The notes under the pieces were generated by a model. The model ran no database searches and had not been told where the DNA came from. It saw only the letters and a program-made list of their open reading frames with translations. From NCBI GenBank assembly GCA_041662565.1, contig JBAZSE010000003.1, forward strand, positions 44,260 through 108,259: a stretch of 64,000 nt of DNA, given 5' to 3'. Both the position numbers and the translations under genes were made by a program. This stretch comes from Patescibacteria group bacterium (lineage in GTDB: Bacteria; Patescibacteriota; Patescibacteriia; UBA1558; UBA10009). Below are positions 1,211 to 62,716 of the stretch, piece by piece (the stretch's first letter is position 1; each line of letters opens with the position of its first letter).

Positions 1211-2884
1211 ATGACTACAACCTCATCACAAGTGACAATTTTTGCCAAAACCAATTATCGCCATCAAGAGGTAAAATTTGGCATTAAAACCGATGATCGG
1301 CGCAGACACATGTATTTGATCGGTAAAACCGGCATGGGCAAATCCGTTACTCTGGAAAACATGATTATCCAGGATATCCAGCACGGCCGGGGAGTGGCTG
1401 TTGTTGATCCGCACGGTGAATTGGTGGAAAAAATCATCAAATTTATACCACCCAACAGGGTTAACGATGTGGTTTATATCAATCCGGCAGATTTGAATTA
1501 TCCAGTGGCTTTTAACGTACTGGAAAGCGTTTCCGAAGAACATCGTCACTTGGTTGCTTCCGGTTTGCTTGGGGTTTTTCAAAAATTATGGGCTGAATCA
1601 TGGGGTCCTCGTTTGGAATATGTATTGAACAACGCCATTATGGCTTTATTGGAATATCCTGGCAGTACGCTTTTGGGAGTAATGAGATTATTAATCGATA
1701 AATCATTTAGACAAAAGGTAATTAATAACATTACCGATCCGATGATTAAATCATTTTGGGTCGAAGAATATTCAAAATATCCCGATAAATTTCAATCCGA
1801 AGCAATTGCTCCGATTCAAAACAAAGTCGGCAGGTTTTTGTCATCGCCGATGATTAGAAATATCGTTGGTCAGGTAAAGTCATCGGTTGATTTGCGAAAA
1901 ATAATGGATGAGGAAAAAATCCTGTTACTTAATTTATCCAAAGGCCGGATCGGTGAAGACAATTCTGCACTGTTGGGCGCTATGATTATTACCAAAATCC
2001 AGTTGGCCGCCATGAGCCGGGTAGAAATTCCGGAAAAAGACCGTAAGGATTTTTATCTATACGTTGATGAATTTCAAAATTTTGCCACAGAAAGTTTTGG
2101 CAATATTTTATCCGAGGCTCGCAAATACCGCTTAAATTTAATCATGGCTCATCAATACATGGAGCAATTAAGTGAAACTACCCGTTCGGCCGTATTTGGT
2201 AATGTAGGCACCATTGTTTGCTTTAGGGTAGGAGGCGAGGATGCGGAATTTTTGGCCAAAGAATTTACTCCGCGCTTTGAAGAGCAGGATTTGTTAAATT
2301 TGGGCAAATACAATATTTATTTAAAATTGATGATAGACGGGGTTGCTTCGGAGCCTTTTTCGGCAACAACTTTACCACCGGTGCCGGAAAGCGAAGAAGC
2401 GGATAACATGATGGAAAAAGTTGTTAAGGTTTCACGCGAACGCTACGCCACCAAACGCGAAATTATCGAAGAAAAAATCCTTCGTTGGAGCTCCATGAAT
2501 GATTCCGGAGACGAGCAAGAAAGAAAACAGGCGGTAAATGTAAAAAACCAAATTAAAACTTTTTCCAAAACCTCACAACCAACCAATCAAGCAAAGAACT
2601 CTCCCAAAAAACCTTTGTTTAAAGATACGGGCATTACTCATCCTGCGGTTTGCGATGCCTGCGGTGAAAAAACCGTTTTAAATTTTATACCTGATCCCAA
2701 AAAACCGATCTATTGCAAAACTTGCTTAAAAAACTTAAGACAGGTAAAATCAGAAAACAGTCCAAAATCAGCACTTTCTGAAGAGCTTTTAAGCCAAAAA
2801 CCCTTAACTCTCAACGAAGCCATGGGTAAGGCGCCACAAAGCTTTAAAAATAGCGCCAATAACGTTAATTTAAGCCGGGAATAA
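1211..2884 (+). CDS. type IV secretion coupling-protein-like (TraD/TrwB/VirD4 superfamily) P-loop ATPase, soluble, with C-terminal zinc ribbon
   Basis: Walker A RHMYLIGKTGMGKSV at residues ~33-47. Walker B hhhhDE = YLYVDEFQNF about 250 aa later, a spacing compatible with an inserted all-alpha domain. RKYRLNLIMAHQ motif. No N-terminal TM segment. Ser/Lys-rich tail with C-x2-C-x17-C-x2-C (CDACGEKTV...YCKTC). Confidence 0.6.
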   Translation: MTTTSSQVTIFAKTNYRHQEVKFGIKTDDRRRHMYLIGKTGMGKSVTLENMIIQDIQHGRGVAVVDPHGELVEKIIKFIPPNRVNDVVYINPADLNYPVAFNVLESVSEEHRHLVASGLLGVFQKLWAESWGPRLEYVLNNAIMALLEYPGSTLLGVMRLLIDKSFRQKVINNITDPMIKSFWVEEYSKYPDKFQSEAIAPIQNKVGRFLSSPMIRNIVGQVKSSVDLRKIMDEEKILLLNLSKGRIGEDNSALLGAMIITKIQLAAMSRVEIPEKDRKDFYLYVDEFQNFATESFGNILSEARKYRLNLIMAHQYMEQLSETTRSAVFGNVGTIVCFRVGGEDAEFLAKEFTPRFEEQDLLNLGKYNIYLKLMIDGVASEPFSATTLPPVPESEEADNMMEKVVKVSRERYATKREIIEEKILRWSSMNDSGDEQERKQAVNVKNQIKTFSKTSQPTNQAKNSPKKPLFKDTGITHPAVCDACGEKTVLNFIPDPKKPIYCKTCLKNLRQVKSENSPKSALSEELLSQKPLTLNEAMGKAPQSFKNSANNVNLSRE

Positions 2885-2890
2885 ATCTTA

Positions 2891-4405
2891 ATGTTAAAAT
2901 TCTTTTTGGTTTTAAAATCCAAATTTTTTGCTAATCCAAACAGAGTTTGGGAGATTTTACCAGGCAGTATTACCTGGTTGACTTTTATTTTAGCCATAGT
3001 ATTTTCCATTTGGTTGCCGATTTGGGCAATTTATTTTATTATTGTTTTTGATCTTTTTTGGCTGCTTAAAGTTTTTTATTTGGTCATTAATCAAGTAACC
3101 TCGTGGTTTATTTTTAAAAAACAAGTCAAAATCAATTGGCTGGAAAAATTAAAAGGAGTTACCGCTAAAAATTGGCAGGATTATTATCATGTTATTTTTT
3201 TACCAACGTATAAAGAGCCCTTTGAAGTTATTGAACGAACTTTTATTTCTTTAGCTAAAGCGGTTTATGAACCGCAAAAATTTATTGTAGTTTTGGCAGG
3301 CGAAGAACGTGATCAAGAAAATTTTTTATCCTTTGCCGATAAAATTATCGAAAAATACTCCGGTCTGTTTTTAAAAATTTTGGTTACGGTTCATCCTAAA
3401 GATTTACCAGGCGAAATTCAGGGTAAGGCATCAAATATTAATTATGCCGGACATAAAGTTCAAGAGATAATTGACCAATTAAATATTCCTTACGAAAATG
3501 TTATTGTTTCGTCTTTTGACATTGATACTTGCCCGCACCCACAATATTTCAGCTATTTGGCTTACAAATATTTAACCCATCCCAAACCAACCAGAGTCAG
3601 TTACCAACCCATAGCCATTTACCACAACAATATTTGGCAATCCGATCCTTTAACCAGGGTGGTGGCCAATTCTACCACTTTTTGGCTGATGACCGATTTA
3701 GCCAGATCGGACCGTTTGTTTACTTTTTCTTCGCACTCCATGAGTTTTAGAGCTTTGGTTGATGTTGGCTTTTGGGAAAAAGATATTGTTTCCGAGGATT
3801 CGCGAATATTTTTGCAATGCTTGCTAAAATATGATGGAGATTATCAGGTCGAACCGATGTATATACCTGTTTCCATGAATACCGTTTCCACTGGTAAATT
3901 CTGGAAAGCTATGTCCGATCAATACAAACAAATGCGCCGCTGGGCCTGGGGCGTAGAGCATATCCCATACATGATGAAAAGATTTAAGGATCACCCCAAA
4001 ATGCCTTTTAAACTTAAATTTAAGCACTTTTTTAACCAAATGGAAGGAATGTGGTCTTGGGCCACCGCTCCTATTTTAATAACGGTAATGGGCCGTTTAC
4101 CACTCTTAATGGCTCCAAAAGGTATTCAATCAACCGCCATAGCCCAAATGGCCCCCCTAATTTTGGAAAAAATCATGACATTTGCCCTCGTAGGCCTTGC
4201 TTTAAACGCTATTTTAAGCACAATTTTAATGCCCGAACGGCCCAAAGGAAACAAATGGTACACCAAACTGGTTATGCTTTTAGAATGGGTATTATTCCCA
4301 GTTACCATGATAGTTTTTGGATCAATTCCGGCAACCGAAGCGCAAACCCGCTTAATGCTTGGCGGAAAATACCGCTTGGGTTTTTGGGTAACTGAAAAAA
4401 AATAA
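2891..4405 (+). CDS. membrane-embedded processive family-2 glycosyltransferase (cellulose/chitin/hyaluronan-synthase-like)
   Basis: N-terminal and C-terminal TM helices. D,D motifs (SFDIDT). QxxRW motif (QYKQMRRWAWG) diagnostic of processive GT2 synthases. Confidence 0.7.
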   Translation: MLKFFLVLKSKFFANPNRVWEILPGSITWLTFILAIVFSIWLPIWAIYFIIVFDLFWLLKVFYLVINQVTSWFIFKKQVKINWLEKLKGVTAKNWQDYYHVIFLPTYKEPFEVIERTFISLAKAVYEPQKFIVVLAGEERDQENFLSFADKIIEKYSGLFLKILVTVHPKDLPGEIQGKASNINYAGHKVQEIIDQLNIPYENVIVSSFDIDTCPHPQYFSYLAYKYLTHPKPTRVSYQPIAIYHNNIWQSDPLTRVVANSTTFWLMTDLARSDRLFTFSSHSMSFRALVDVGFWEKDIVSEDSRIFLQCLLKYDGDYQVEPMYIPVSMNTVSTGKFWKAMSDQYKQMRRWAWGVEHIPYMMKRFKDHPKMPFKLKFKHFFNQMEGMWSWATAPILITVMGRLPLLMAPKGIQSTAIAQMAPLILEKIMTFALVGLALNAILSTILMPERPKGNKWYTKLVMLLEWVLFPVTMIVFGSIPATEAQTRLMLGGKYRLGFWVTEKK

Positions 4406-4474: not shown

Positions 4475-5170
4475 CTATCTGAGCTCAAAGCTGACCTCCT
4501 GGATCAAGCAGCCACTGTTTTTGAGCAACCTCTCATCAAGAATGCTCGTCAGTTCTAAGAACAATGGCCTTTGATCATCGTAGTTAGGTAAAGCAGTAGC
4601 CAAGCGTTGGCGATTTTTTTCCGCCCAGAGAGCGAGATAAAATTGAATCACCCCAGATAGAGAGCCGTAGCTCGCTATCTCTTTTTTAAACCCCCTCCAA
4701 AGTAAGTATCTTTCGAGGTCGCCAGACGAGTTCATTTTCAACCGACAGACGATGCGAGCTGATTCATTGACTTGGTTAGAAACTTCACCGAGGTAGAACA
4801 TGAAGGCGTAATCCTGTTCTTGGTAGGATTCAATCGACCGCCAATCTTTCAACCGGCTGTCCCACTTCCAGAGCAGACCTCCCTTTGGCATGACCGCGTT
4901 GACCTGGCCGAAGGAATTGAAGATGATGCTTTCAGAATCAACTGACACTGTCAGGTATTTTCGTGGCGCCATGTAAAGTAGCCACGTGAAAATAAGAAAC
5001 AATACAGTCAGAAGCATAAGTCCTGCGTTTTCGCCCTGCTGTAGCGCCGCCGATTGCTGTGTTTGCGGTAGAGACACTATGTCCCTGATAAAAACCGCGA
5101 AAAAGCAGAGCGGAACAATTAACAAAACCAGCCGAACGTGGTTGCGAAAAAATCCAGAGATGGATTTCAT
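4475..5170 (-). CDS. hypothetical two-TM membrane protein encoded on a GC-rich (~47%) island
   Basis: ORF with two N-terminal hydrophobic helices and a ~160 aa soluble tail. Sampled GC is 42-53% against ~33-38% in the flanks. Codon choice differs (CTG/GCC/CGC-rich). Sits downstream of def-fmt on the same strand with its own terminator. Confidence 0.55.
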   Translation of the reverse strand: MKSISGFFRNHVRLVLLIVPLCFFAVFIRDIVSLPQTQQSAALQQGENAGLMLLTVLFLIFTWLLYMAPRKYLTVSVDSESIIFNSFGQVNAVMPKGGLLWKWDSRLKDWRSIESYQEQDYAFMFYLGEVSNQVNESARIVCRLKMNSSGDLERYLLWRGFKKEIASYGSLSGVIQFYLALWAEKNRQRLATALPNYDDQRPLFLELTSILDERLLKNSGCLIQEVSFELR

Positions 5171-5249: not shown

Positions 5250-6179
5250 TCAATCTCGTAAATAACCGTTAATAAATTCTTTAGCTGTCATTTCTTTTTT
5301 TCCTTCCGGTTGCAATTTTTCTATCAATAACGCGCCGTGGCCACATTGAATATATAATTTTCCATTATCTACCTGTAGCTGACCAATTAAATTGGATATA
5401 CTTTCAACGGCTTGGGCAGATATTATTTTAGCAGTTTTAAGTTTTAAGTTTTTACTTTTTAGCTCTGTATAGCTTCCTGGCCACTGCGCATAAGCCCTAA
5501 TCTGCCGTTCAATTTGATCTGCACTGTTTTGCCAATCTATTTTGCCGTCTTCCTTATTGATAATTTTACAAAAAGTAGCTTCAGTATTATTTTGAGGTTC
5601 TAACCTAATTTTTCCAGCCAAATAATCCGGTAATGTTTCTACCAGCAATTTTGCTCCCAATCCAGCTAATCTTTCGGATAAACTTTGGTAATTATCATCA
5701 GCTTTAAGTTTTAAGTTTTGAGTTATAAGTTTTGAACCATGATCCATTTTCTCATCCAATTTAATAATGGATACTCCTGTTTCTTTGTCACCATTTAATA
5801 TCGCCGACTGAATGGGGGATGGACCGCGGTACTTTGGCAATAACGATGGATGGATATTTAAAACTCCCAATGGAAATAAATCCAAAATTTCCTGGGGAAT
5901 AATTTTTCCGTAAGCAACCACAATTCCCAGATCAGGTTTTAGTGTTTCAATCTTTAATCTTAAATCTTTTAAATTTTCACAAACTTCTAAACCAAGCATT
6001 TTTGCCTCAACCTTAATTGCTGTTGGCGTTAAAATTTGCTTTCTACCGATTAACTGATCAATTTGAGTTATAACCAAAACAACATTATAGTCATTTTGAA
6101 GTAGGGCCCTTAATGCAGGAACCGCAAACTCGGGAGTACCAAAAAAAAATATCCTTTGCTTTAAATTATTTTTCGTCAT
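5250..6179 (-). CDS. fmt: methionyl-tRNA formyltransferase
   Basis: NIHPSLLPKYRGPSPIQ formyltransferase motif. C-terminal Fmt domain. Overlaps def in the canonical def-fmt arrangement. SD AAGGAG upstream. Confidence 0.9.
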   Translation of the reverse strand: MTKNNLKQRIFFFGTPEFAVPALRALLQNDYNVVLVITQIDQLIGRKQILTPTAIKVEAKMLGLEVCENLKDLRLKIETLKPDLGIVVAYGKIIPQEILDLFPLGVLNIHPSLLPKYRGPSPIQSAILNGDKETGVSIIKLDEKMDHGSKLITQNLKLKADDNYQSLSERLAGLGAKLLVETLPDYLAGKIRLEPQNNTEATFCKIINKEDGKIDWQNSADQIERQIRAYAQWPGSYTELKSKNLKLKTAKIISAQAVESISNLIGQLQVDNGKLYIQCGHGALLIEKLQPEGKKEMTAKEFINGYLRD

Positions 6180-6778: not shown

Positions 6779-7066
6779 ATGTCCGAATCAGACAATTTTA
6801 CCAAACTAGGGGATTTGCTTAAAAACAAGCAAACCGTTAAAGGCCCGGCCTATCCTTGGCAGGATTTGGCTTTAAAAATTATCAGTGATTTAAATGTTCC
6901 GGCTTTCAAAAAAAGCGCTGTTTTTAAGGTTTGCAGGGATTTGCCCCAGCAACATATTGTCCAAGCCCTAATTGACACCAAGGAACTCTGCCAAACCGGC
7001 CAAAAATGGAAATATTTTTTTAAGATCACTTCTGGTAAGCATGATGAAATAAAAGACCCTTCTTAA
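6779..7066 (+). CDS. hypothetical small protein (95 aa)
   Basis: Isolated plus-strand ORF between minus-strand genes. Upstream TTGCCT-N15-TATAAT-like promoter. Downstream hairpin plus T-run. Confidence 0.45.
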   Translation: MSESDNFTKLGDLLKNKQTVKGPAYPWQDLALKIISDLNVPAFKKSAVFKVCRDLPQQHIVQALIDTKELCQTGQKWKYFFKITSGKHDEIKDPS

Positions 7067-7081
7067 ACGAAGGGCTTTTTG
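7054..7081 (+). terminator. rho-independent terminator
   Basis: CCCTTC-ttaaac-GAAGGG followed by CTTTTT. The stop codon lies in the loop. Confidence 0.5.
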
Positions 7082-7098
7082 TTACAACATTATTACTT

Positions 7099-7911
7099 TT
7101 AGATCTCTAAATTTGCCACCAAATAACCAACACCAACGGAATCATCATAACTTAAAATATTGGTTTTAAAATTAATTTCTTCCAAAGCTCCTAGCAAAAC
7201 CAAAATTGATTGATAACCGCATTGGCCGGAAGATTCCAGTAATTCAGAGCTTAATTCTTTAAATGATTCAATGTTTTTTTCTTTAAGGCAATTAACAACC
7301 TTTTGATCAAAAATCTTTCCTTCGGGCGAATATCCGTCGGGTGAACTCTTTTTTAAACGGTGCGAAAGATCAGCCGAGGCAATAATGGCGATTCTTTTGG
7401 AACTGGTTTCGGCTATTTTACGGATTGCTCTGCCCAACGACAAATGATTATCTCTGGATAGCAAAGAAAAACTCATTGGTATAACCAAGAGGTTTTTTAA
7501 ATGAGAAGTTAAATACCACAATGGTATGCCCGAACCATAATCGATTTTTTCTTCACTGTTTAAAACCAAAGGCATACTGCTTTCTAACGATTCCTTTAAT
7601 TGATAACCTAAAGCCAAATCATTTTTATATTCGGCCTTGGTATCCAAATCGCCGAATTCCGAAAAATCGGTTTTTAAAACCGGCGAATGATTAATCACAA
7701 AAGCATCTTTCATCATCGGCCCATGGGGGGAAATAATAATTAAAGTATCGGGTTTGGAAGCGTACAATTCCTGTTCCAACAGCAAAAAGGCCTTTTTGGT
7801 TTTGGGACATGACTTAACGGTGCCGGAAATATTTTGAGATAATTTATCTTTACTTAAAGCGGGGATTAAAACAGGTGGATGAGGAGTAATGGCGGCAAAA
7901 ACTAAAGGCAT
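7099..7911 (-). CDS. class III extradiol dioxygenase subunit B-like protein (LigB/YgiD/MEMO1-like fold)
   Basis: ITPHPPVL, IIISPHGP, DYGSGIPLWYL and IIASADLSHRL segments parallel the His-containing motifs of YgiD/LigB-type proteins. Could alternatively be an AmmeMemoRadiSam-B-type protein. Confidence 0.55.
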   Translation of the reverse strand: MPLVFAAITPHPPVLIPALSKDKLSQNISGTVKSCPKTKKAFLLLEQELYASKPDTLIIISPHGPMMKDAFVINHSPVLKTDFSEFGDLDTKAEYKNDLALGYQLKESLESSMPLVLNSEEKIDYGSGIPLWYLTSHLKNLLVIPMSFSLLSRDNHLSLGRAIRKIAETSSKRIAIIASADLSHRLKKSSPDGYSPEGKIFDQKVVNCLKEKNIESFKELSSELLESSGQCGYQSILVLLGALEEINFKTNILSYDDSVGVGYLVANLEI

Positions 7912-15957: not shown

Positions 15958-17216
15958 ATATTTATCAAAGCGGTTATCTTTTGGGCATCATCAAGAGATA
16001 TTCCCCGATGATTAGGTAAATTAAGTGTTTGTCGGGCCGCTTGTTCGGCCACCGGGCAATTTCCCAAAATATAACCGGCCGAACTTAAATTTGCTTTTTG
16101 GGGAGCAATTGTTTGATCATACCAGTTGCCGGCAATCACGCCATGTTGCTTTAAAAAACCAACAAGCGATTTTTTATCCTCAACCAAAATTGTAAAACGA
16201 AGGTAAATGTTCTCGCTTAATGCTTCAAGTGGATAAATTATTTTAATTTTTTCGGTATTTAAATTATGAGCATAATAATAAGCAATTTTTTGACGGTGAA
16301 AATTAACAACCGTTAATTTTTTAAGCTCTGCTAATGCCAATACTGCCAAGCAGTTGGGCAGGGCATAATTTAAAATTGACAAATCACGGCAATTATTTTC
16401 ATTTGCCGAGGTAATTTTAGGTATAAAATTAAATTTCTTAGCTAAGGTGATTATAATTTTACCTAATGACAAAAAATCATACAGACAATAGCTTTTTAGG
16501 GCAATAACTGGATAAAAAATATTCTGCCAAACTTTAATCAACGGCAAATCAGCCAATTTTGTCGGCAAATTATTAAACAAATCTTGATTATTGGTGCAAA
16601 GCATTCCCCCATTGACCGCAGAAATAACTTTATCCCGGCCAAAACTAAAAACCGAAAATTCACCGAAAGTTCCAACCAATTGGTTTTGATACTTAGCTCC
16701 TAATGAATGAGCACAATCTTCCACTAATTTAAGGTTATACTTGGCACAAAGGTGCAAAATTTTACTCAAATCAATGGGCTGGCCAAAAGTGTGTTGAACA
16801 ATAATAACCTTAGCACGCGGACTAATTAATTTTTCCAATTTTTCCAGATCAAAATTTAAATCTGAAAGATTAATATCGCCGTAAACAATTTTAGCGCCAC
16901 AAGCCAAAACCGCATTAGCCACCGAAACGCAAGTATAGGCCTGAACAATCACCTCATCACCCTCCCCTATTTTTAGCGCGCGCAGCCCGTGATACAAAGC
17001 TCCTCGAGCATTGTAAAAAGATCGAGCGTATTTTATTTTAAAATTTTCGATAAAATACTTTTCCAAGTTCTTTGCACCTTGCCCATGCCTTATTTTAAAC
17101 AAACGCCAGGGCAATAAAAAACTTAAAGCTAGCCAAGCCTGGGCCCAAGAAATCGTGGTAAAAAATGATGCAGTAAGAGTTTTCATAAGCAACGTAGAGC
17201 AAATCCCGCTAAGCAA
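15939..17216 (-). CDS. DegT/DnrJ/EryC1/StrS-family PLP-dependent aminotransferase (start probably the ATG at 17186)
   Basis: DEVIVQAYTCVSVANAV, LVEDCAHSLGAKY and SFGRDK (Schiff-base Lys) motifs. The tracked start is TTG. N-terminal ~40 aa are hydrophobic and atypical for the family. Confidence 0.75.
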   Translation of the reverse strand: MLSGICSTLLMKTLTASFFTTISWAQAWLALSFLLPWRLFKIRHGQGAKNLEKYFIENFKIKYARSFYNARGALYHGLRALKIGEGDEVIVQAYTCVSVANAVLACGAKIVYGDINLSDLNFDLEKLEKLISPRAKVIIVQHTFGQPIDLSKILHLCAKYNLKLVEDCAHSLGAKYQNQLVGTFGEFSVFSFGRDKVISAVNGGMLCTNNQDLFNNLPTKLADLPLIKVWQNIFYPVIALKSYCLYDFLSLGKIIITLAKKFNFIPKITSANENNCRDLSILNYALPNCLAVLALAELKKLTVVNFHRQKIAYYYAHNLNTEKIKIIYPLEALSENIYLRFTILVEDKKSLVGFLKQHGVIAGNWYDQTIAPQKANLSSAGYILGNCPVAEQAARQTLNLPNHRGISLDDAQKITALINIWQKLN

Positions 17217-35651: not shown

Positions 35652-35674
35652 ACTAAATTAATTTAAATTTATAT

Positions 35675-35788
35675 TTAACCTTGCCTTTGTTTATGCTTAG
35701 GCACTTTACATAAGCAAACAACCCGGCCCTTGCGCCTGGTTATTTTACAATCCTTGCAGATTTTTTTAACTGAAGTGCGTACTTTCAT
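35675..35788 (-). CDS. rpmJ: 50S ribosomal protein L36 (37 aa; absent from ORF track)
   Basis: Manual translation gives [37 protein letters not shown], the canonical L36 zinc-ribbon sequence, in the expected position between infA and rpsM. Confidence 0.85.
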
Positions 35789-35791
35789 ATG

Positions 35792-36028
35792 TTACATTCT
35801 AAATGTTATTCTGCCCTTGGTTAAATCGTAAGGAGTCATTTCCACTTTAACTTTATCCCCAGGCACCAAACGAATGTTAAACATCCGCATTTTACCGGAA
35901 AGATGAGTTAAAATTTCATGCCCATTATCCAATTTTACCCTAAAACTGGCCGCCGGCAGCAATTCTTCAATGGTGCCGATTGCCTCTATAAACCCCTTTT
36001 TATTGGATTTTGATTGTTCGTCTGACAT
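35792..36028 (-). CDS. infA: translation initiation factor IF-1
   Basis: S1-like OB fold. [30 protein letters not shown]. Confidence 0.9.
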
Positions 36029-36206
36029 TTATGGTAACAAAAAAGGAATTCTCTATATCTGCCCGCCACTGTTTTAACCGTTTCTCGCGCTTGATAGAGA
36101 GATTTCCGCTAAAATAAGCTAATTTTTACTATTTGTAAATATCTAACAGCTTAATGGGTATATTCTACACTATCAAAAAAATATGTCAAGAAGGCGGACC
36201 GGCCGG

Positions 36207-53272: not shown

Positions 53273-55044
53273 CTTTTTAACACAGCCATAAACGCTTCTT
53301 GGGGAATATCAACTTTGCCAGTGCCCATAGCCATCATTTTCTTTTTGCCTTTCTTTTGTTTTTCCAATAACTTGCGTTTACGGGTAACATCACCGCCATA
53401 AAGTTTGGCAGTTACGTCTTTTTTCATAGCGCTAATGCGTTCTCCGGCAATAATTTTTCCGCCCACCGCGGCTTGAATTTTAACTACAAACATCTGCTTG
53501 GGCAAAATATCTTTTAAGGCAGTAACAATCCTTTTACCGGCTTTAAAAGCATCATCTTCATAAACAATGGTGGAAAGCGCGTCTACCAAATCATCAGCTA
53601 CTAAAATATCCATTCTCACAACTCGAGCCGGACGGTAATCCAATAATTCGTAGTTCATGGAAGCATAGCCCGATGATAAACTTTTTAAATTATCGTAAAA
53701 ATCAGTCAGAATTGCAGAAAGTGGAATATGGTAATGCAAAATTGTCCGGTTCTCATCCAGATATTCGGTTGTTTGGTATTCTCCCCTGCTTTCCTGAATC
53801 AGCTTCATTAAACCGCCTAAATAATCTTTAGGTGTAATAATATCCAGCTTAACATAAGGTTCTTCCACCTCGGCCACTTGCCCCGAATCGGGCAACTCTT
53901 GAGGAGAGTGAATGATTGTATTTTTGCCGTTTGAAAGCTTAACTTTGTAAGCTACCGAAGGCGTGGTAATCACTAGATCCAAGCCGTATTCCCGGCGCAA
54001 GCGTTCTTGGAAGATTTCCAAATGCAACATGCCCAAAAAACCGCACCTAAAACCGTAACCCAAAGCCGGGGAATTTTCCGGCTCATAAAACAGGGCGGAA
54101 TCGTTTAATTTTAATTTATCAATGCCTTCGCGCAAACGCTGGTAATCATCCCCTTCTTTGCAAAAAACGCCTGCAAACACCATTGGTTTTACTTCTTTAT
54201 AGCCGTGAAGCAATTGCGCCGGATCAGAAGCCAAGGTAATCGTATCGCCCACTCTGGCTTTATCCAATTGTTTTAAACCGGTAACGATATATCCGATTTC
54301 CCCTGATTCCAATTTATCGGCTTTTTGAAATTCCGGCTTAAAATAACCTACTTCCAAAATTTCACTGGTTTCATTTGCGGCTAGAAAACGAATTTTTTGG
54401 CCGGCTGTTAACGAACCGTTCTTAAGCCGAACATATGCCACAACGCCTTTATAGTCATTAAATTCCGAATCAAAAATCAAGGCCTGGACTTGAGCCGAAC
54501 TATTGCCTTGCGGTGGCGGAGTTTTTGCTATTACCTCCTCCAAAACTTGCGCGACATTTTGGCCGGTTTTGGCGGAAACTTCAATAATATCATCAGGTGC
54601 GCAACCTAATAAATTTACTATTTCTTTACGCACTTTTTCCGGATGAGCGGCCGGCAAATCAATCTTATTCATCACCGGGATAATGGTTAAATTTTGCTCC
54701 AAAGCCAGATATAAATTAGCTACGGTTTGGGCTTCTATGCCCTGCGAAGCATCAACCAGCAAAATAGCCGATTCCACGGCCGCCAAAGATCGTGAGACCT
54801 CGTAGGTAAAATCAGCATGGCCCGGAGTATCAATTAAATTTAAAATATATCCCTGATAATCCATGCGCACGGGCTGAAGTTTTATGGTAATGCCCCGTTC
54901 GCGTTCCAGATCCATCCGATCCAATAGCTGATTTTTCATTTTCCGGCTTTCCACGGTTTTAGTGATTTCCAAAAAACGATCAGCCAAAGTTGATTTACCA
55001 TGATCAATATGCGCGATGATACAAAAGTTACGGATATTATTCAT
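53269..55044 (-). CDS. lepA: elongation factor 4
   Basis: NFCIIAHIDHGKSTLADR GTPase and LepA C-terminal domain. Confidence 0.9.
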   Translation of the reverse strand: MNNIRNFCIIAHIDHGKSTLADRFLEITKTVESRKMKNQLLDRMDLERERGITIKLQPVRMDYQGYILNLIDTPGHADFTYEVSRSLAAVESAILLVDASQGIEAQTVANLYLALEQNLTIIPVMNKIDLPAAHPEKVRKEIVNLLGCAPDDIIEVSAKTGQNVAQVLEEVIAKTPPPQGNSSAQVQALIFDSEFNDYKGVVAYVRLKNGSLTAGQKIRFLAANETSEILEVGYFKPEFQKADKLESGEIGYIVTGLKQLDKARVGDTITLASDPAQLLHGYKEVKPMVFAGVFCKEGDDYQRLREGIDKLKLNDSALFYEPENSPALGYGFRCGFLGMLHLEIFQERLRREYGLDLVITTPSVAYKVKLSNGKNTIIHSPQELPDSGQVAEVEEPYVKLDIITPKDYLGGLMKLIQESRGEYQTTEYLDENRTILHYHIPLSAILTDFYDNLKSLSSGYASMNYELLDYRPARVVRMDILVADDLVDALSTIVYEDDAFKAGKRIVTALKDILPKQMFVVKIQAAVGGKIIAGERISAMKKDVTAKLYGGDVTRKRKLLEKQKKGKKKMMAMGTGKVDIPQEAFMAVLKR

Positions 55045-55045
55045 A

Positions 55046-56620
55046 TTATCTAAACAACGGCCTTAAATATTTAGCCAGCCAAATTCTGATTATTTGAATT
55101 TCTTCACAGCGGGTTAGCAAACTGATTAACAGATAAAAACTTAATCCGGCCAAACCGGCTACCAGGCCTTGGGTAAAAATTCCCAAAAAGCTCCTCATAT
55201 CCACTGCACTGGCCATAATTCTTAAAACCACATAAACAACTAAGCCGGAAATAACGGAATTAAAGGAAATTTTAAGCGTTGACCAGATGATTTTTTTATC
55301 GTCCAAATACCCAACTCTTAAACGCAAAACCATTAGTAAAATTATCATATTAACAATGGAGGAAATGGAAAAAGCCATGGCCAGGCCTGCCACTCCGAAA
55401 AGCTTGCCCAAAAAAACAGTGCCGATAATATTTAAAACAATAGCCAAACTGCTGATATAAACCGGGGTTTTAGTATCTTCCAGGGCGTAAAAACTCCTGG
55501 CAAGCATAGGAATCAAACTTTGGGCCAAAAGTGAAATTGTAAACCAACCTAAGGTTTGGGCGGTATCATAAGTGTTCTGCCAATCAAAATTTCCTGAACC
55601 CAAAATTACCCTAACCAATTGTGCCCGAAGCAACAAAATAAAAACGGAAATCGGAATCAGCAAAAAAACCACCCGCCTAAAGTGCAAAGAAAAAACCTGA
55701 ACAAATCTGCCTGATTCATTTTGTGCCAAGGTCTCCGAAAAAACCGGAAAAACAGCAATAGCCAAGGAAACGCCAAAAATGGAAATAGGAAACGATTGCA
55801 AATTATTGGCCAAATTAAAAATAGCCAAGCTGCCGGTAGCGAGTGTTGAAGCTACAACGGTAATGACGATTAAATTAAACTGATTGGCAGCCAAGCCAAT
55901 TGTCCGAGGAATCATCAGTTTAAAAACTTTTACTGCTTCCGGATTTGGGCGCCAACTCCATTGATAGCGCCAGCCGGATTTTATAACTTCAGGCAGTTGA
56001 ATTAATAAATGCAAAATAGAACCAAAAACAACGCCCCAAGCCAATCCACTTAAGCCAAAAATCGGGTAAAAAGTAGTTACGCCCAAAATAATACCCAAAT
56101 TATAAAAAACCGGAGCCAAAGAAAAGGTAAAAAACTTTTTTAAGGAATTTAAAATTCCACCCACCACATTGCTGATACCGAAAAAAATAATGCTCAACAA
56201 CATGATTCTGGTTAATAAAACGGTTTGCTCAAGCTGATCGCCGGAAAAACCAGGGACAATTAAGGGAACCAAATTTGAGGCAAAAATTATCATGCCTCCT
56301 GCCAAAACAATTAAAGCCACTAATAAATAATTTAAAATTATATTGGATAAAATTAAAGCTTTTTCTTTATCCTTAAACCAGGCCTTGGTAAAAACCGGAA
56401 TAAAGGCCGAAGCCAAAGCGCCTAAAACCAAAGTATTAAATATAATATCCGGCAGCTTAAAAGCCGCGTAGTAACTATCCAAAATACTGCCCGCGCCAAA
56501 ATACGAAGCCAAAAGCCGATCGCGCACTAAACCCAAAAGCCGGCTGATTACCGAAAAAAACGCGATTAATACCGCGCCCCCGCTAACTGTTGTGATTAAT
56601 TTTTGCCAAAAATTCCTCAT
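55046..56620 (-). CDS. murJ: lipid II flippase MurJ
   Basis: 14-TM MviN/MurJ family with characteristic N-terminal motifs. Confidence 0.85.
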   Translation of the reverse strand: MRNFWQKLITTVSGGAVLIAFFSVISRLLGLVRDRLLASYFGAGSILDSYYAAFKLPDIIFNTLVLGALASAFIPVFTKAWFKDKEKALILSNIILNYLLVALIVLAGGMIIFASNLVPLIVPGFSGDQLEQTVLLTRIMLLSIIFFGISNVVGGILNSLKKFFTFSLAPVFYNLGIILGVTTFYPIFGLSGLAWGVVFGSILHLLIQLPEVIKSGWRYQWSWRPNPEAVKVFKLMIPRTIGLAANQFNLIVITVVASTLATGSLAIFNLANNLQSFPISIFGVSLAIAVFPVFSETLAQNESGRFVQVFSLHFRRVVFLLIPISVFILLLRAQLVRVILGSGNFDWQNTYDTAQTLGWFTISLLAQSLIPMLARSFYALEDTKTPVYISSLAIVLNIIGTVFLGKLFGVAGLAMAFSISSIVNMIILLMVLRLRVGYLDDKKIIWSTLKISFNSVISGLVVYVVLRIMASAVDMRSFLGIFTQGLVAGLAGLSFYLLISLLTRCEEIQIIRIWLAKYLRPLFR

Positions 56621-59511: not shown

Positions 59512-60609
59512 CTAAAGCGACAAGTACAATGCCCTGGTTTCTTTAATCATCTTATCCCAACTAAACCTTTGGACATTTTTTAGGCCATTAGCAATGATTT
59601 GTTGGCGCAAATGCCTATCATTTAATGCGTTATTAATAACATTAAACATCTCGGATTCATTGCTTGGATCAAAATAAACAGCCCCTTGGCCTAGCACTTC
59701 AGGCAAGCATGATGAATTAGCCGAAACTACCGCTAAACCATGGGCTTGGGCCTCTACCGGCGGCAAACCAAACCCTTCATATAAAGAAGGAAAAACATAT
59801 AAAATTGCTGATTGATACAAAGCGGCAAGTTCGCTATCGGCCACAAAACCCGTAAAAATTACACTGGCATCTGCTGCAAAAGCTTGTTTAAGCTGTTGAT
59901 AAAAATAATCAATCCGGCCGGCTAAAACCAGTTGATAATTTTTACTGCTATTTATTTTTGGCCAAACTTTTAACAATTGTTCCAAATTTTTATGGGGGTA
60001 GGCCGCGCCAACATAAAACAAAAACGGCTTGGTTATTTTAAAACGACTGATATCAACGGCCTGTTGTTGGTTTGACAAAAAATAGCTTTCATAAATCACC
60101 TTAACTTTTTCGGGCTTAAGAGAAAAAGTTTTGACTAAATCGTTTTTAACAAATTCCGAAGGCGCAATAATTTTTTTTGCCTTTTTAGCCGCCTGAGCAA
60201 TAATTTTTTTATAAAACCATAATTTAATGGCATACAGCCATTTTGGCAAAGTGCTGGCGCGAGAATCGGGAAAATGATTGATAATTAAATCATGGATCGT
60301 AACTACAAATGGGCCACGATAAAAATATGGCACATTAAAATGAGGCCAATGCATTAAATCCAAATTCTCCCGAGCTATAACCCTTTGTCCAAATAATTGT
60401 TCTCGCCAACCGTACCAAGGCATATTAAAAAGAACCTTTTTGACTCTTGGCGAATCTGTTTTAAAATCATCAAAATTATCAGCGGATAAAAAAATAACAA
60501 AAGAATTTTTTTTATCATCGGTTACCAGGCCGTCAACCAATTTTTTAACATAACGGCCTATCCCCCGCTGTTTTGTGCCGTAAAAACGCGCGTCAATGCC
60601 AATACGCAT
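59512..60609 (-). CDS. family 4 glycosyltransferase
   Basis: EGFGLPPVEAQAHGLAVVSANSS motif. Confidence 0.8.
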   Translation of the reverse strand: MRIGIDARFYGTKQRGIGRYVKKLVDGLVTDDKKNSFVIFLSADNFDDFKTDSPRVKKVLFNMPWYGWREQLFGQRVIARENLDLMHWPHFNVPYFYRGPFVVTIHDLIINHFPDSRASTLPKWLYAIKLWFYKKIIAQAAKKAKKIIAPSEFVKNDLVKTFSLKPEKVKVIYESYFLSNQQQAVDISRFKITKPFLFYVGAAYPHKNLEQLLKVWPKINSSKNYQLVLAGRIDYFYQQLKQAFAADASVIFTGFVADSELAALYQSAILYVFPSLYEGFGLPPVEAQAHGLAVVSANSSCLPEVLGQGAVYFDPSNESEMFNVINNALNDRHLRQQIIANGLKNVQRFSWDKMIKETRALYLSL

Positions 60610-60628
60610 AGTTACTGATTATTAATTA

Positions 60629-61231
60629 CTAATTAAATCTTCCATTAAAAATTATTTCATCCAAATTCTTTCTGGTTCTTTCGGCTAATTCCGACTGCTT
60701 TTGTTCCGACGTTAATTTTTCCAAATCAGTCAAAGTTGCCGGGTAGCCAACGGCAATCATTGAACCGGCCTGATATTCCTGCGGATCCACACCTAATGCT
60801 GTAACTGCTTTATCTTTATCAAAACCCGCCATTTGATGAGCTACTAAACCAAGATGCACCGCTTCCAAAACTAAACTCATCGAAGCCGCTCCAGTATCGT
60901 GCAGAGCATGATAATTAGGTAAGTTGTTTTTTGTTTGATTTTTTTTGGCAAACGAAACTGCCAATAAATAGGCCTTGCCCGCCCAACCCTGGTTAAATTC
61001 TCCCATTAACGAAAATAGAATTTTAAATTTTTCGGGCTCATTTGCTGTTGCATAAACATAACGCCAGGGCTGTTCATTATTAGATGAAGGTGCCCAGCGG
61101 GCTGCTTCAAATAAACTCATTATTTTTTCATTTTCAATAGGTTGACCTGAAAAAACTCTAGGGCTCCAGCGGTTTTTAGCTAAATCGTTAATGGGATAAA
61201 CAACCTTTGCCGGTTTATTTGGATATGTCAT
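60629..61231 (-). CDS. nitroreductase-family protein
   Basis: RWSPRVF ... AARWAPSSNNEQPWRY FMN-binding motifs. Confidence 0.8.
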   Translation of the reverse strand: MTYPNKPAKVVYPINDLAKNRWSPRVFSGQPIENEKIMSLFEAARWAPSSNNEQPWRYVYATANEPEKFKILFSLMGEFNQGWAGKAYLLAVSFAKKNQTKNNLPNYHALHDTGAASMSLVLEAVHLGLVAHQMAGFDKDKAVTALGVDPQEYQAGSMIAVGYPATLTDLEKLTSEQKQSELAERTRKNLDEIIFNGRFN

Positions 61232-61252
61232 ATGGGTTTATTATTTATGTGA

Positions 61253-61383
61253 ACGAGGGTAAGTAAAATTTTTTTCGGTCCGAGCCGGGTCCCCCCGAAC
61301 GAGCCTGGGCGAGCGATTCGAGCGAGACCCTGGCGAGTTGAGGAAGGGAGGCGCAGGACAAAAAAATTTTACTTACCCGAGGG
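61253..61383. repeat. MITE-like element: 18-19 bp AT-rich terminal inverted repeats enclosing an 85-nt ~68% GC, CGAG-rich core
   Basis: GGGTAAGTAAAATTTTTTT (61256..61274) and AAAAAAATTTTACTTACCC (61360..61378) are perfect reverse complements. CGAG is present on both outer flanks. The core has no ATG in either sense. The right arm overlaps the last codons and stop of the GT4 gene. Confidence 0.45.
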
Positions 61384-62508
61384 AACATTCAAATTAAATT
61401 CTCTAAAAACTTCCAACATTTGTTTGGCTGATTGTTCCCAAGAATACTTTTTAACCTGCTCAAAACCATTGGCGATAAGTTTGCTTCTTAAATTATTATC
61501 GCTTAATGCCAAATGCATGGTTTGGGCGATTTCTTTAATATTATATGGATCAACCAAAATGGCTGCTTGAGCCAAAACCTCGGGCATTGAAGAATTAGCC
61601 GAAGCAATTACCGGCACTCCGGCTCGCATGGCTTCGAGCGGTGGAAAGCCAAAGCCCTCGTAAAATGACGGCCAAACAAATAAATCGGCTCGTTGATACA
61701 ACTCAGATTGTTGGGCGGGCGTAACATAGCCCAAAAATTTAACCCTGTTGCCCAATTTTAATTGACGGACCAGTTGAATTAGCTTGCTATACTGCCAGCC
61801 CGCCCCGCCGGCTAAAACCAAATGATACTGGGGATTATTTAACAAATGAAAAGCTTTAATAATCCCAATAATATTTTTGCGCGGTTCCAATGTGCCCAAA
61901 AATAAAATATATTTATCCGGTAAATCAAATGGTAATGTTTTAGGCAAATAATTTTTTACCTCAATCGGCCCTGGATAAATCACTTTGATTTTATCTGGAA
62001 GTAAATCGTAAGTAGTTATCAAATCATCTTTGGTACTTTGCGATACAGCTACGATTTTAGCGGCATTTTTTAATTTTTGGTTGATTCCTATGGCCTTATG
62101 CCATAAGCGCATTTTAGGCGAATAAAGTTCTGAAGTTTTGATAAACGATAAATCATGGACAGTAACTATTGTTGGGCAACCGGGCGAAACGGACCAAAAA
62201 TTTAAATTGGGAAACCAGAAAATATCAGCTCCCCCAACCAAACGATCAAGATAGGGCTTGCCTAAAAATTTGAGCGAAAAATTAAATAATTTATTGGGAA
62301 TTTTTTTGGAATAATAAGTTGTATTTTTACCTTTAACCAGCTGCTGAGCGATTTTATTTTCCTTGATTGAATTGGAAAATAAAACGTATTGGTTTTCTTG
62401 ATCCAATTCAAATAATTTTTCCAACAACTTGTAAGCGTAAAATCCAACTCCGGTTAAATTTCCTCCGCCTAATAATCCCCTTGCATCAATGGCAATTTTC
62501 ATAATCAA
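61369..62508 (-). CDS. family 4 glycosyltransferase (start likely the ATG at 62502)
   Basis: EGFGFPPLEAMRAGVPVIASANSS motif. Confidence 0.8.
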   Translation of the reverse strand: MIMKIAIDARGLLGGGNLTGVGFYAYKLLEKLFELDQENQYVLFSNSIKENKIAQQLVKGKNTTYYSKKIPNKLFNFSLKFLGKPYLDRLVGGADIFWFPNLNFWSVSPGCPTIVTVHDLSFIKTSELYSPKMRLWHKAIGINQKLKNAAKIVAVSQSTKDDLITTYDLLPDKIKVIYPGPIEVKNYLPKTLPFDLPDKYILFLGTLEPRKNIIGIIKAFHLLNNPQYHLVLAGGAGWQYSKLIQLVRQLKLGNRVKFLGYVTPAQQSELYQRADLFVWPSFYEGFGFPPLEAMRAGVPVIASANSSMPEVLAQAAILVDPYNIKEIAQTMHLALSDNNLRSKLIANGFEQVKKYSWEQSAKQMLEVFREFNLNVPSGK

Positions 62509-62552
62509 AGGTAAAAAATTCCGGTTTTAAAACAAAAAAATGTTGAAGTATG

Positions 62553-62578
62553 CAAAACCCCTATGGTAAGGGGTTTTG
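62553..62578. terminator. hairpin terminator (A-tract/U-tract type) downstream of the Cys-rich small ORF
   Basis: CAAAACCCCT-atggta-AGGGGTTTTG. Perfect 10-bp stem. Confidence 0.45.
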
Positions 62579-62593
62579 AGCCGATATTTAAGT

Positions 62594-62716
62594 TTAACTG
62601 TTGCAACCGCATTCACAGCTGGCTGAGCATTGGCAGCAGTTGGAACAATGGTCTCCGCAGGAGCATTTGTTAACATCATTTAAAGGCATATCGCATTTTG
62701 AGCAATTCATAGGCAT
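62594..62716 (-). CDS. cysteine-rich 40-aa peptide, metallothionein-like (absent from ORF track)
   Basis: Manual translation gives MPMNCSKCDMPLNDVNKCSCGDHCSNCCQCSASCECGCNS, with 11 Cys and 1 His in 40 aa arranged as CxC/CC/CxxC clusters. Consensus promoter upstream and hairpin downstream. No SD. Confidence 0.4.
   Translation of the reverse strand: MPMNCSKCDMPLNDVNKCSCGDHCSNCCQCSASCECGCNS

What the first reader, a model, noticed from the sequence alone, without database searches (positions are those of the whole stretch)
61253..61383. MITE-like element: perfect 19-bp inverted repeats around an 85-nt GC-rich (~68%) CGAG-rich core, overlapping a gene stop
GGGTAAGTAAAATTTTTTT at 61256..61274 is the exact reverse complement of AAAAAAATTTTACTTACCC at 61360..61378. 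The enclosed 85 nt (cggtccgagccgggtccccccgaacgagcctgggcgagcgattcgagcgagaccctggcgagttgaggaagggaggcgcaggac) are about 68% GC in a ~35% GC genome and contain no ATG in either sense. A CGAG (or GAG) direct repeat flanks both arms, the kind of short duplication a transposition event leaves. The right arm supplies the last codons and TAA stop of the GT4 gene 61369..62508. The whole element fills the spacer between that gene and the nitroreductase gene, which is co-directional. Candidates: a miniature inverted-repeat transposable element (MITE), an RPE/REP-like selfish palindrome, or a structured RNA (large hairpin, attenuator, riboswitch-like leader for the nitroreductase gene).
Basis: seen in the sequence. 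Interest (0 to 1): 0.6.

Follow-up and report, generated by a model that had tools for sequence, protein, structure and literature searches.

The report
Mobile palindromic repeat in a Patescibacterium
The GC-rich hairpin between two cell-envelope genes is real and belongs to a previously undescribed family of small palindromic DNA repeats; related uncultured bacteria carry several copies at different gene junctions and in both orientations, so it is a miniature selfish repeat and not a riboswitch or any known RNA.

Summary
The perfect 19-bp inverted repeat is at 61257-61275 / 61360-61378. It encloses an 84-nt core of 71% GC in a 37% GC window. Two independently assembled runs carry the identical sequence. 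There is no Rfam match and no second copy in the 64 kb.

The host is a Patescibacterium near Ca. Komeilibacteria. Two relatives carry homologous elements in the same GT4|nitroreductase spacer, one of them in the opposite orientation. They also carry further copies at other junctions (MreB|GT4, MurJ|LepA). Those junctions, or the GT4|nitroreductase junction itself, are empty in other genomes, including this window.

All copies share the termini 5'-TAGCGAGCGAGGGCAAG...CTTGGCCGAGCGAGCTA-3'. CGAG lies opposite CGAG in the stem, giving tandem G.A oppositions: 57 G.A against 3 C.T over six copies. One strand therefore always folds 5-8 kcal/mol better than the other.

Best reading: a non-autonomous REPIN/MITE-like mobile palindrome of a new family. 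I infer, but have not shown, that it acts as a single-stranded hairpin. It meets the defining features of neither REPs (no GTAG/CGTC tag) nor classical MITEs (no target duplication). The mobilising enzyme and the copy number in this genome are unknown.

The parts
61246..61392 (+). Whole palindromic element, given on its CGAG-rich strand. This is the window + strand, antisense to the flanking genes.
   Evidence: Covariance model R1 scores 153.6 bits on + against 38.3 on -. 8 CGAG and 0 CTCG on this strand. The hairpin has 57 Watson-Crick pairs and 10 G.A oppositions.
61249..61259 (+). Left family terminus GTGAACGAGGG, a degenerate form of the family consensus (T)AGCGAGCGAGGG.
   Evidence: Matches the left-terminus consensus GCGAGCGAGGGCAAG with 3 substitutions. 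Aligned with the termini of the L024 and L014 copies.
61257..61275 (+). Left arm of the perfect 19-bp inverted repeat, GGGTAAGTAAAATTTTTTT.
   Evidence: In relatives the arms differ (CAAGATAAATTTTTT, CAAATAAAAATTTTT) but remain complementary through compensatory changes.
61276..61359 (+). 84-nt core, 71% GC and CGAG-rich. It is itself an imperfect hairpin.
   Evidence: The basal part is conserved in L024:3720-3842 while the apical part there is replaced.
61360..61378 (+). Right arm, AAAAAAATTTTACTTACCC. On the minus strand it encodes the last two codons (GGT AAG = G K) and the TAA stop of GT4.
61376..61386 (+). Right family terminus CCCGAGGGAAC (consensus GCCGAGCGAGC). It lies inside the GT4 reading frame, supplying the codons for V-P-S.
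   Evidence: Alignment with other copies; GT4 translation.
61369..62508 (-). GT4 glycosyltransferase gene. Its last approximately 5 codons and its stop come from the element.
   Evidence: The C-terminal tail ...NLNVPSGK is not shared with orthologues.
60629..61231 (-). Nitroreductase-family gene immediately downstream of the element.
55042..55048 (-). Empty site. The MurJ stop (TAA), one base, then the LepA ATG. The same junction carries a family copy in L024 and in L014.
61240..61267 (-). Weak sigma-70-like site. The -35 hexamer TTTACT lies in the element's arm, and the -10 hexamer AATAAT lies just upstream of the nitroreductase ATG. It is a possible side effect of the insertion and is not evidence of function.
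   Evidence: 9 of 12 matches, and the number of such sites in the region is not above the shuffles.

Best explanation
The element is one copy of a previously undescribed family of non-autonomous palindromic repeats, REPIN/MITE-like, found in Komeilibacteria-related Patescibacteria.

A family member is about 85-147 bp long. Its termini are conserved: 5'-TAGCGAGCGAGGGCAAG...CTTGGCCGAGCGAGCTA-3'. Inside them are A/T-tract arms, and at the centre a GC-rich apical part that can be exchanged between copies. The whole element folds into one long hairpin. In that hairpin, Watson-Crick pairs alternate with tandem G.A oppositions, CGAG facing CGAG. The hairpin is therefore markedly more stable on one strand.

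Shown: the family is dispersed, occurs in both orientations, and is present or absent at orthologous gene junctions.

Inferred: the CGAG strand extrudes as single-stranded DNA. A trans-acting enzyme recognises its termini; the type is unknown, and a hairpin-binding HUH/Y1 transposase as used by REPINs and IS200/IS605 is the best guess. The element is then copied into A/T-rich junctions just past stop codons.

In this window it landed at the GT4|nitroreductase junction. It replaced the last few GT4 codons and supplies the stop codon. It also pushed apart two genes that overlap in a relative. The read-through mRNA here would carry the weaker, CUCG-strand hairpin. Any effect on nitroreductase expression would be a by-product.
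For: 1. Homologues at the same junction. L024/L008 and L014 have 81% and 75% identical elements between GT4 and nitroreductase. Third-codon positions of the flanking genes are only 43-56% identical.

2. Opposite orientation. The gene-sense strand has 0 CGAG and 8-11 CTCG in the window and L024, but 7 CGAG and 0 CTCG in L014. Identity is 75-81% in the matching orientation against about 60% in the other.

3. Extra copies at other loci. L024 has copies at 3720-3842 (MreB|GT4, 64 bits), 16242-16386 (MurJ|LepA, 43 bits) and 5608-5692 (21 bits). L014 has a copy at 16151-16223, after MurJ, cut by the contig end.

4. Relationships among copies. The two L014 copies are 90% identical to each other. The L014 and L024 copies at the same MurJ|LepA junction are only 49% identical and oppositely oriented. 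That indicates independent insertion or conversion, not descent.

5. Empty sites. In L015 the GT4 gene overlaps the nitroreductase gene, and L019 has a 22-nt spacer. The window's MurJ|LepA junction is TAA-T-ATG.

6. Contigs of relatives end inside such repeats: L014, L022 and L023.

7. Conserved termini in all copies.

8. Structure is kept by compensatory changes. 10 of 47 pairs changed on both sides among three sequences; 0 of 500 shuffles reached this, and slid controls gave 0-2.

9. Strand asymmetry. Over six copies there are 280 Watson-Crick pairs, 57 G.A (20 tandem steps), 3 C.T and 2 G.T. The sign test for G.A against C.T gives p about 6e-14, treating oppositions as independent, which copies related by descent are not. 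The CGAG strand is 5-8 kcal/mol more stable than its complement in 4 of 4 copies.
Against: Only one copy exists in this 64-kb window, even with the model's filters off. The rest of the 809-kb genome could not be searched.

Exact-pattern scans of GTDB representative genomes, JGI metagenomes and IMG/VR, and BLAST against phages and plasmids, found no further members. A six-frame peptide search of 5.8 billion proteins also found none.

No target-site duplication could be defined. No transposase was found among the 40 window ORFs scanned with Pfam, nor in the precomputed Pfam lists for the genes called on the related loci.

Three species keep an element at the same junction, with no variation among 3 and 5 samples of two of those species. 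That pattern would also fit a retained, selected function.

In-situ inversion of a near-palindrome cannot be excluded as the cause of the orientation flips.

Single-strand mobilisation is inference only.
Confidence: 0.65

Rival explanations
1. A cis-acting RNA hairpin inside the operon transcript, retained because it is useful. It could stabilise mRNA, act as an RNase III processing site, uncouple translation, or otherwise modulate nitroreductase expression.
For: The element lies between co-directional genes. It forms a very stable RNA hairpin on either strand: -57.3 and -64.2 kcal/mol, z about -5. An element is kept at the same junction in three species and is invariant within species. Pairing is maintained by compensatory changes. 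REP-type repeats are thought to act this way (abstract of PMC3733652).
Against: The transcript would carry opposite strands in L014 and in the window/L024. The stability asymmetry follows the element, not the direction of transcription. Only 2 G.U pairs occur among about 340 oppositions, which is unusual for an RNA helix under selection. Orthologous nitroreductase genes in L015 and L019 lack the element. There is no U-tract after the stem, unlike the genome's real terminator at 7034-7100.
Confidence: 0.15
2. A small structured RNA gene family, transcribed from its own signals on the CGAG strand and present in several copies per genome.
For: It is a GC-rich island in an AT-rich genome. Structure is conserved with covariation. 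The strand preference is consistent across copies regardless of the flanking genes. Tandem G.A pairs are common protein-binding features of RNAs (own knowledge).
Against: No Rfam family matches at E<=10. No promoter or terminator is seen: the promoter/terminator scan lists neither on the CGAG (+) strand, and the arms place T-runs before the stem and A-runs after it on both strands. The apical core is replaced outright in other copies while the termini stay the same. Copies abut stop and start codons with no room for signals. G.U pairs are almost absent.
Confidence: 0.1
3. An invertible DNA switch (inverton). The inverted repeats would be recombination sites, and the orientation of the core would toggle expression of the downstream gene.
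For: Perfect 19-bp inverted repeats flank a short segment. Opposite orientations occur at the same junction in related genomes.
Against: The sequences outside the arms, the GAGCGAG termini, flip too, so the arms are not the crossover points. All 3 samples of this species and all 5 of the L024 species show one orientation. The core contains no promoter-like sequence. No recombinase gene is nearby.
Confidence: 0.04
4. An assembly or sequencing artefact, or a chimeric fragment from a GC-rich organism.
For: The GC jump is abrupt. The 22-mer from the core matched only unrelated GC-rich coding DNA in JGI metagenomes.
Against: The sequence is identical in independent assemblies of different runs. Homologues exist in other species at the same junction.
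Confidence: 0.01

Closest known systems
[quoted passage not shown]
   Same: It is a short non-coding extragenic repeat that folds into one long hairpin in ssDNA or mRNA. It lies mostly just downstream of genes, occurs in either orientation, and is dispersed within genomes. It persists at orthologous sites while remaining non-autonomous (PMC3116915 and PMC3733652 abstracts; compared).
   Different: There is no unpaired GTAG or CGTC tag. The element is not built from two 20-40-bp REP units. It has long A/T-tract arms and a GC-rich apical module. The stem is zipped by tandem G.A oppositions. Seen copy numbers are low, and no RAYT gene was found. The host phylum is Patescibacteria; the PMC3733652 abstract reports tagged REPs in 8 phyla but names only Proteobacteria, Cyanobacteria and Planctomycetes.
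Bacterial MITEs and palindromic insertion elements such as Correia/NEMIS (Neisseria), RUP (Streptococcus pneumoniae), ERIC/IRU (enterobacteria) and Rickettsia palindromic elements (own knowledge)
   Same: The size is about 100-150 bp and it has terminal inverted repeats. It is inserted at gene junctions or gene ends, here rewriting the 3' end of a gene. It occurs in both orientations and shows presence/absence polymorphism between relatives.
   Different: No target-site duplication could be identified, and the apparent one is part of the element. No parent insertion sequence with the same ends is known. The termini contain a same-strand (direct) GAGCGAG heptamer inside the inverted repeat, which gives the strand asymmetry.
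IS200/IS605-family derivatives (PATEs) and other elements processed as single-stranded hairpins (own knowledge; PMC6006769 abstract seen)
   Same: One strand forms the better hairpin, there is no target duplication, and the conserved ends are not simple inverted repeats. This makes a single-strand mechanism attractive.
   Different: Those elements have separate subterminal hairpins at each end, not one element-long hairpin. They insert next to a specific tetra- or pentanucleotide. No TnpA or TnpB gene was seen here.

Membership tests
REP / REPIN (GTAG- or CGTC-tagged, RAYT-associated) | An unpaired GTAG or CGTC motif at one end of the palindrome (PMC3733652 abstract). | tested here: not met
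   No GTAG or CGTC on either strand of 61236-61402. Family termini read (T)AGCGAGCGAGGG. Only the L016 mini-variant happens to have GTAG.
REP / REPIN (GTAG- or CGTC-tagged, RAYT-associated) | Two 20-40-bp REP units in inverted orientation, separated by a spacer and forming one hairpin (PMC3116915 abstract). | tested here: inconclusive
   There is one long hairpin. However, the halves are not recognisable stand-alone REP units, and no singlets were seen in 181 kb of loci.
REP / REPIN (GTAG- or CGTC-tagged, RAYT-associated) | An associated single-copy RAYT (Y1/HUH) gene flanked by the repeats. | not testable with these tools
   None was found among 40 window ORFs or among the genes called on the loci. 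The rest of the genomes could not be read.
REP / REPIN (GTAG- or CGTC-tagged, RAYT-associated) | High copy number within a genome. | tested here: inconclusive
   1 copy in 64 kb of this genome. 3-4 copies in 18.4 kb of L024, and at least 2 in 16 kb of L014.
MITE (transposase-mobilised miniature inverted-repeat element) | Terminal inverted repeats. | tested here: met
   Perfect 19-bp arms. The outer TAGC/GCTA and GGCAAG/CTTGCC boxes are conserved across copies.
MITE (transposase-mobilised miniature inverted-repeat element) | A target-site duplication that differs from site to site. | tested here: not met
   The flanking CGAG / GAGCGAG motif is the same at all sites, inverts with the element, and pairs as tandem G.A. 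No other direct repeat is convincing in the A/T-rich flanks.
MITE (transposase-mobilised miniature inverted-repeat element) | Multiple dispersed copies, with filled and empty orthologous sites. | tested here: met
   Met in relatives. Empty sites are L015, L019 and window position 55045. Multiple copies were not seen within this window.
MITE (transposase-mobilised miniature inverted-repeat element) | A parent autonomous insertion sequence with the same ends. | not testable with these tools
Nothing was found in IMG/VR, phages or plasmids.
Known structured RNA or riboswitch (Rfam 15) | A match to a curated covariance model. | tested here: not met
   No hit at gathering score; only noise at E<=10 (lncRNA model, 14 bits against a gathering score of 60).
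Intrinsic (Rho-independent) terminator | A GC-rich stem immediately followed by a U-tract on the transcribed strand. | tested here: not met
   On both strands the order is T-run, stem, A-run. The terminator scan does not call it. A genuine terminator of this genome at 7034-7100 looks different.
Integron attC site | R''/R' core sites RYYYAAC ... GTTRRRY bounding an imperfect palindrome downstream of a cassette ORF (own knowledge). | tested here: not met
   Neither motif occurs on either strand of 61236-61402.
Invertible promoter (inverton) | Both orientations within one population, a promoter between the inverted repeats, and a nearby recombinase gene. | tested here: not met
   One orientation in 3 and 5 assemblies of two species. 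No promoter-like site in the core. No recombinase gene nearby. Read-level heterogeneity was not testable.

The most novel reading that the evidence does not exclude
The family may be a distinct class of strand-specific, single-stranded-DNA hairpin elements. Its stems would be deliberately 'zipped' by tandem sheared G.A pairs in CGAG/CGAG steps. Its conserved GAGCGAG-containing termini would be read by a so far unidentified Patescibacterial enzyme. That would be a mobilisation or processing system with no described counterpart, in a phylum where almost nothing is known about mobile DNA. It might have been co-opted at conserved junctions of the cell-envelope gene cluster.
Probability: 0.2. Interest if true: 0.65.

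Novelty: new variant of a known kind. Interest (0 to 1): 0.42.

Why it matters
Patescibacteria (CPR) have tiny, tightly packed genomes. Two literature searches here for palindromic intergenic repeats or miniature inverted-repeat elements in CPR/Patescibacteria turned up nothing relevant.

A dispersed palindromic family shows that even these genomes host miniature selfish DNA. The element rewrites gene ends, separates genes that overlap in a relative, and breaks metagenomic assemblies.

The systematic CGAG-opposite-CGAG design predicts which strand is the active one. That gives an experimentally testable handle on the mechanism, whether ssDNA hairpin recognition or a G.A-specific binding protein.

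In practical terms, the termini and model R1 can be used to annotate such elements, so that they are not mistaken for riboswitches, sRNAs or assembly errors.

Tried and rejected
- **Rfam:** searched at gathering score and at E<=10; nothing.
- **Second copy in the window:** tried a mismatch search, blastn-short, nhmmer, terminus regexes, and the covariance model with filters off. None found.
- **Collection scans:** the core 22-mer gave 0 hits in GTDB representative genomes and 0 in IMG/VR. In JGI metagenomes it gave 3 hits, all chance matches in GC-rich coding DNA. The arm pattern found only an unrelated Oscillospiraceae hairpin repeat. The conserved-core and terminus patterns in IMG/VR gave 0 hits or chance hits. 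BLAST against phages and plasmids found nothing.
- **Six-frame peptide search:** the element's six reading frames, concatenated, were searched against 5.8 billion proteins to catch ORFs called through other copies. Nothing was found.
- **Excision model:** an 18-bp TIR plus a 4-bp CTCG duplication would restore a GT4 end of ...NVPSFT*. I dropped this once the same motif was seen at every copy.
- **My own intermediate idea:** I considered a positionally conserved functional RNA whose P1 stem covaries. I dropped it after finding the opposite orientation in L014 and extra copies elsewhere.
- **Other readings rejected:** SRP RNA-like, terminator, attC and inverton readings were rejected on sequence features.
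- **Transposase search:** Pfam scans of 40 window ORFs found none.
- **Unavailable junctions:** L022 and L023 were fetched for more junctions, but their contigs stop right after GT4.

Full report
**1. The observation**

Reading 60600-62700, the repeat finder and a script confirm the feature. Its exact reverse complement lies at 61360-61378. They enclose 84 nt (not 85) of 71% GC (not 68%) in a window of 36.8% GC, with no ATG on either strand.

Both flanking genes are on the minus strand: GT4 at 61369-62508 and a nitroreductase-family gene at 60629-61231. The GT4 stop codon and its last codons lie in the right arm.

The repeat is the longest inverted repeat within 200 nt in the whole window. Perfect inverted 16-mers or 19-mers at that spacing never arose in 30 Markov simulations.

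The whole region folds into a single long imperfect hairpin on either strand. As RNA the + strand gives -64.2 kcal/mol (z -4.9) and the - strand gives -57.3 (z -5.2).

The identical sequence is present in the source contig (ENA ERZ27249449, 809 kb) and in Logan assemblies of two other runs. It is therefore not an assembly error.

**2. What it is not**

Rfam 15 finds only two tRNAs in the window and nothing at the element, even at E<=10.

The order on both strands is T-run, stem, A-run. That is the reverse of an intrinsic terminator, and the terminator scan does not call it. A real bidirectional terminator of this genome, at 7034-7100, looks quite different.

There are no attC core sites and no GTAG/CGTC tags.

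**3. Relatives**

The GT4 and nitroreductase proteins place the organism in Patescibacteria, next to Ca. Komeilibacteria. The nearest other species are only 53-56% (GT4) and 73-77% (nitroreductase) identical. I fetched orthologous loci by exact-protein look-up.

- **L008/L024 and L014.** These are the two closest species, and both carry a homologous element in the same GT4|nitroreductase spacer. Identity to the window element is 81% and 75%. Third-codon positions of the flanking genes are only 43-56% identical.
- **Arms.** They differ between species (TAAGTAAAATTTTTTT, CAAGATAAATTTTTT, CAAATAAAAATTTTT) but stay complementary. In the three-sequence alignment, 10 of 47 pairs changed on both sides. 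No shuffle out of 500 reached this, and slid controls gave 0-2.
- **Empty junctions.** In L015 the two genes overlap. In L019 the nitroreductase follows another gene after 22 nt. L010 lacks the nitroreductase altogether.

**4. The turning point**

In L014 the element is inverted relative to the genes. The gene-sense strand has 7 CGAG and 0 CTCG there, against 0 and 8-11 in the window and L024. Identities are 75-81% in the matching orientation and about 60% in the other. The short CGAG-rich flanks outside the 19-bp arms invert too, so the arms are not inversion crossover sites.

A covariance model built from the three elements (R1) then found further copies in the relatives:

- L024:3720-3842 between MreB and a GT4 gene (64 bits). 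It has the same termini and arms but a different apical core.
- L024:16242-16386 between MurJ and LepA (43 bits).
- L024:5608-5692, a short version (21 bits) nested in a perfect 21-bp inverted repeat.
- L014:16151-16223, directly after the MurJ stop and cut by the contig end (46 bits).

The two L014 copies are 90% identical to each other. The L014 and L024 copies at the same MurJ|LepA junction are only 49% identical and oppositely oriented. In the window that junction is empty: TAA, one base, ATG at 55042-55048.

Contigs of three relatives (L014, L022, L023) stop inside GC-rich palindromic repeats at these junctions, as expected for multi-copy sequence.

Dispersed copies, both orientations, filled and empty orthologous sites, and greater similarity within a genome than between orthologous sites together describe a mobile or otherwise duplicative repeat family.

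**5. Anatomy of the family**

On the CGAG-rich strand every copy reads 5'-(T)AGCGAGCGAGGG-CAAG-A/T arm - GC-rich core - A/T arm - CTTG-GCCGAGCGAGC(TA)-3'. The window copy has somewhat degenerate termini, GTGAACGAGGG and CCCGAGGGAAC.

It is the same at every site and inverts with the element, so it is not a target-site duplication. I could not define any other duplication in the A/T-rich flanks.

Folding each copy against its own reverse complement shows why a direct repeat sits inside an inverted one. CGAG faces CGAG, giving C-G, G.A, A.G, G-C. Over six copies I counted 280 Watson-Crick pairs, 57 G.A oppositions (20 tandem steps), 3 C.T and 2 G.T. The sign test for G.A against C.T gives p about 6e-14. 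That test treats oppositions as independent, which copies related by descent are not; the per-copy counts (10:0, 12:0, 11:2, 11:0, 7:1, 6:0) show the same asymmetry.

From memory, not verified here: tandem sheared G.A pairs in pyrimidine-GA-purine steps are unusually stable in DNA and RNA, and the classic example duplex d(ATGAGCGAAT)2 contains this very GAGCGA motif.

Consistently, the CGAG strand folds 5-8 kcal/mol better than its complement as DNA in all four full-length copies tested, and also as RNA for the window copy. This asymmetry follows the element, not the direction of the flanking genes. By my tally of the seven family matches, three have the CGAG strand in the gene-sense direction and four antisense (strands of the model matches, read against the gene tables).

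**6. Most likely mechanism**

*Shown.* It is a family of non-autonomous palindromic repeats with conserved termini and an exchangeable apical module. The family is dispersed, occurs in both orientations, and shows presence/absence polymorphism. In this window the element provides about five codons and the stop of GT4. It also creates a 137-nt spacer where a relative has overlapping genes.

*Inferred.* The functional form is a hairpin of the CGAG strand. Three points make single-stranded DNA the more likely form than RNA: the near absence of G.U pairs, the strictly Watson-Crick compensation, and the independence from transcription direction. The conserved termini would be the recognition sites of a trans-acting enzyme. 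A hairpin-binding HUH/Y1 transposase, as for REPINs and IS200/IS605, is the best guess.

No such gene was found among the 40 window ORFs scanned or on the fetched loci.

Effects on the host operon would be by-products. These include a strong hairpin in the read-through mRNA, and a weak promoter-like site whose -35 lies in the arm.

*Rivals.* These are a retained cis-acting RNA hairpin, a multi-copy sRNA gene and an invertible switch. They are weighed in the rival-explanations section. The first keeps some weight because three species hold an element at this same junction and it is invariant within species.

**7. Comparison with known elements**

The element works like a REPIN or MITE, but it fails the defining tests of both. 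It has no GTAG/CGTC tag and no recognisable REP units (definitions in the abstracts of PMC3733652 and PMC3116915). It has no site-specific target duplication and no known parent insertion sequence.

Literature searches found nothing on palindromic or miniature repeats in CPR/Patescibacteria, and nothing on the terminal motifs.

I therefore rate it a new variant of a known kind.

**8. Limits**

The family census therefore rests on about 200 kb of fetched loci.

The copy number in the window's own genome outside these 64 kb is unknown.

Negative results from IMG/VR, phages, plasmids and the six-frame peptide search show only that near-identical copies are not widespread in those sets.

Noticed in passing
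window 62594-62716 (-), with 62772-62744 and 62572-62558: A 40-aa cysteine-rich ORF (MPMNCSKCDMPLNDVNKCSCGDHCSNCCQCSASCECGCNS) sits between two GT genes. It has a strong promoter-like site (11 of 12 matches plus TG) and a terminator-like hairpin. Similar small Cys-rich ORFs occur at the same place in relatives (L010 around 2740-2870, L023 671-724; gene calls of 50 aa in L012/L013).
   Followed up: partly
L023:1972-2033, L022:4500-4547 and L022:1-45: Other GC-rich, CGAG-containing palindromic repeats occupy the GT4 3' end in close relatives of L014. An example is GTCATTGCGAGGAGGCCCCGCTAGCGGGGCC...CGAAGCAATCTCGACGAGATTGCTTCG. One of them rewrote the GT4 C-terminus (P0009 ends ...VIARRPR). The Logan contigs stop inside them.
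   Followed up: partly
L007:2240-2480 and 5625-5865 (Oscillospiraceae MAG WQXS01000001.1): There are two copies, 88% identical, of a roughly 230-nt long-hairpin repeat. Its stem contains GGGTAAGTAAAATT, the same 14 nt as the window's arm. The second copy carries a compensatory change (GGGTTAG.../...CTAACCC). The core is unrelated to the window element, and the shared arm is probably coincidence.
   Followed up: partly
L024:14529-14629 and L016:18240-18420: Intergenic arrays of a different short motif, ATCCGTG(T/A)AA(T)C, occur in direct and inverted copies in the DUF4012|MurJ and MurJ|LepA spacers of relatives.
   Followed up: no
L014:14438-14530 and L010:2838-2964: Further GC-rich hairpins with GGCAAGGCC/GGCCTTGCC-type ends and C5/G5 tracts give weak hits to model R1 (24 and 19 bits). 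They may be distant relatives of the family or terminators.
   Followed up: no
L016:9840-9900 (also L017, L018): The GT4|nitroreductase spacer of a more distant relative holds a miniature element-like hairpin, GAGCGAGAG-AAGCGAAGAAG-ATTA-CTTTTTCGCTT-CCGAGCCGAGGAGC. It is followed by two unrelated GC hairpins, the last of them terminator-like (CCCTGCGCC-TT-GGCGCAGGG).
   Followed up: partly
window 7034-7100: A canonical bidirectional intrinsic terminator (AAAAGACCCTTC-TTAAAC-GAAGGGCTTTTTG) lies between convergent ORFs. It is a useful contrast with the element.
   Followed up: yes
window 35652-36206: This stretch has no ORF of 90 aa or more. It holds the short genes rpmJ-like (37 aa) and infA-like (78 aa), has no Rfam hit, and is ordinary.
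   Followed up: yes
window 1211-2884 (+): A 557-aa protein with TrwB/HerA-type ATPase domains plus a treble-clef zinc finger sits next to unannotated ORFs (83-1201, 4475-5170). It could be part of a DNA-translocation or mobile-element module, and is the only hint of such machinery in the window.
   Followed up: no
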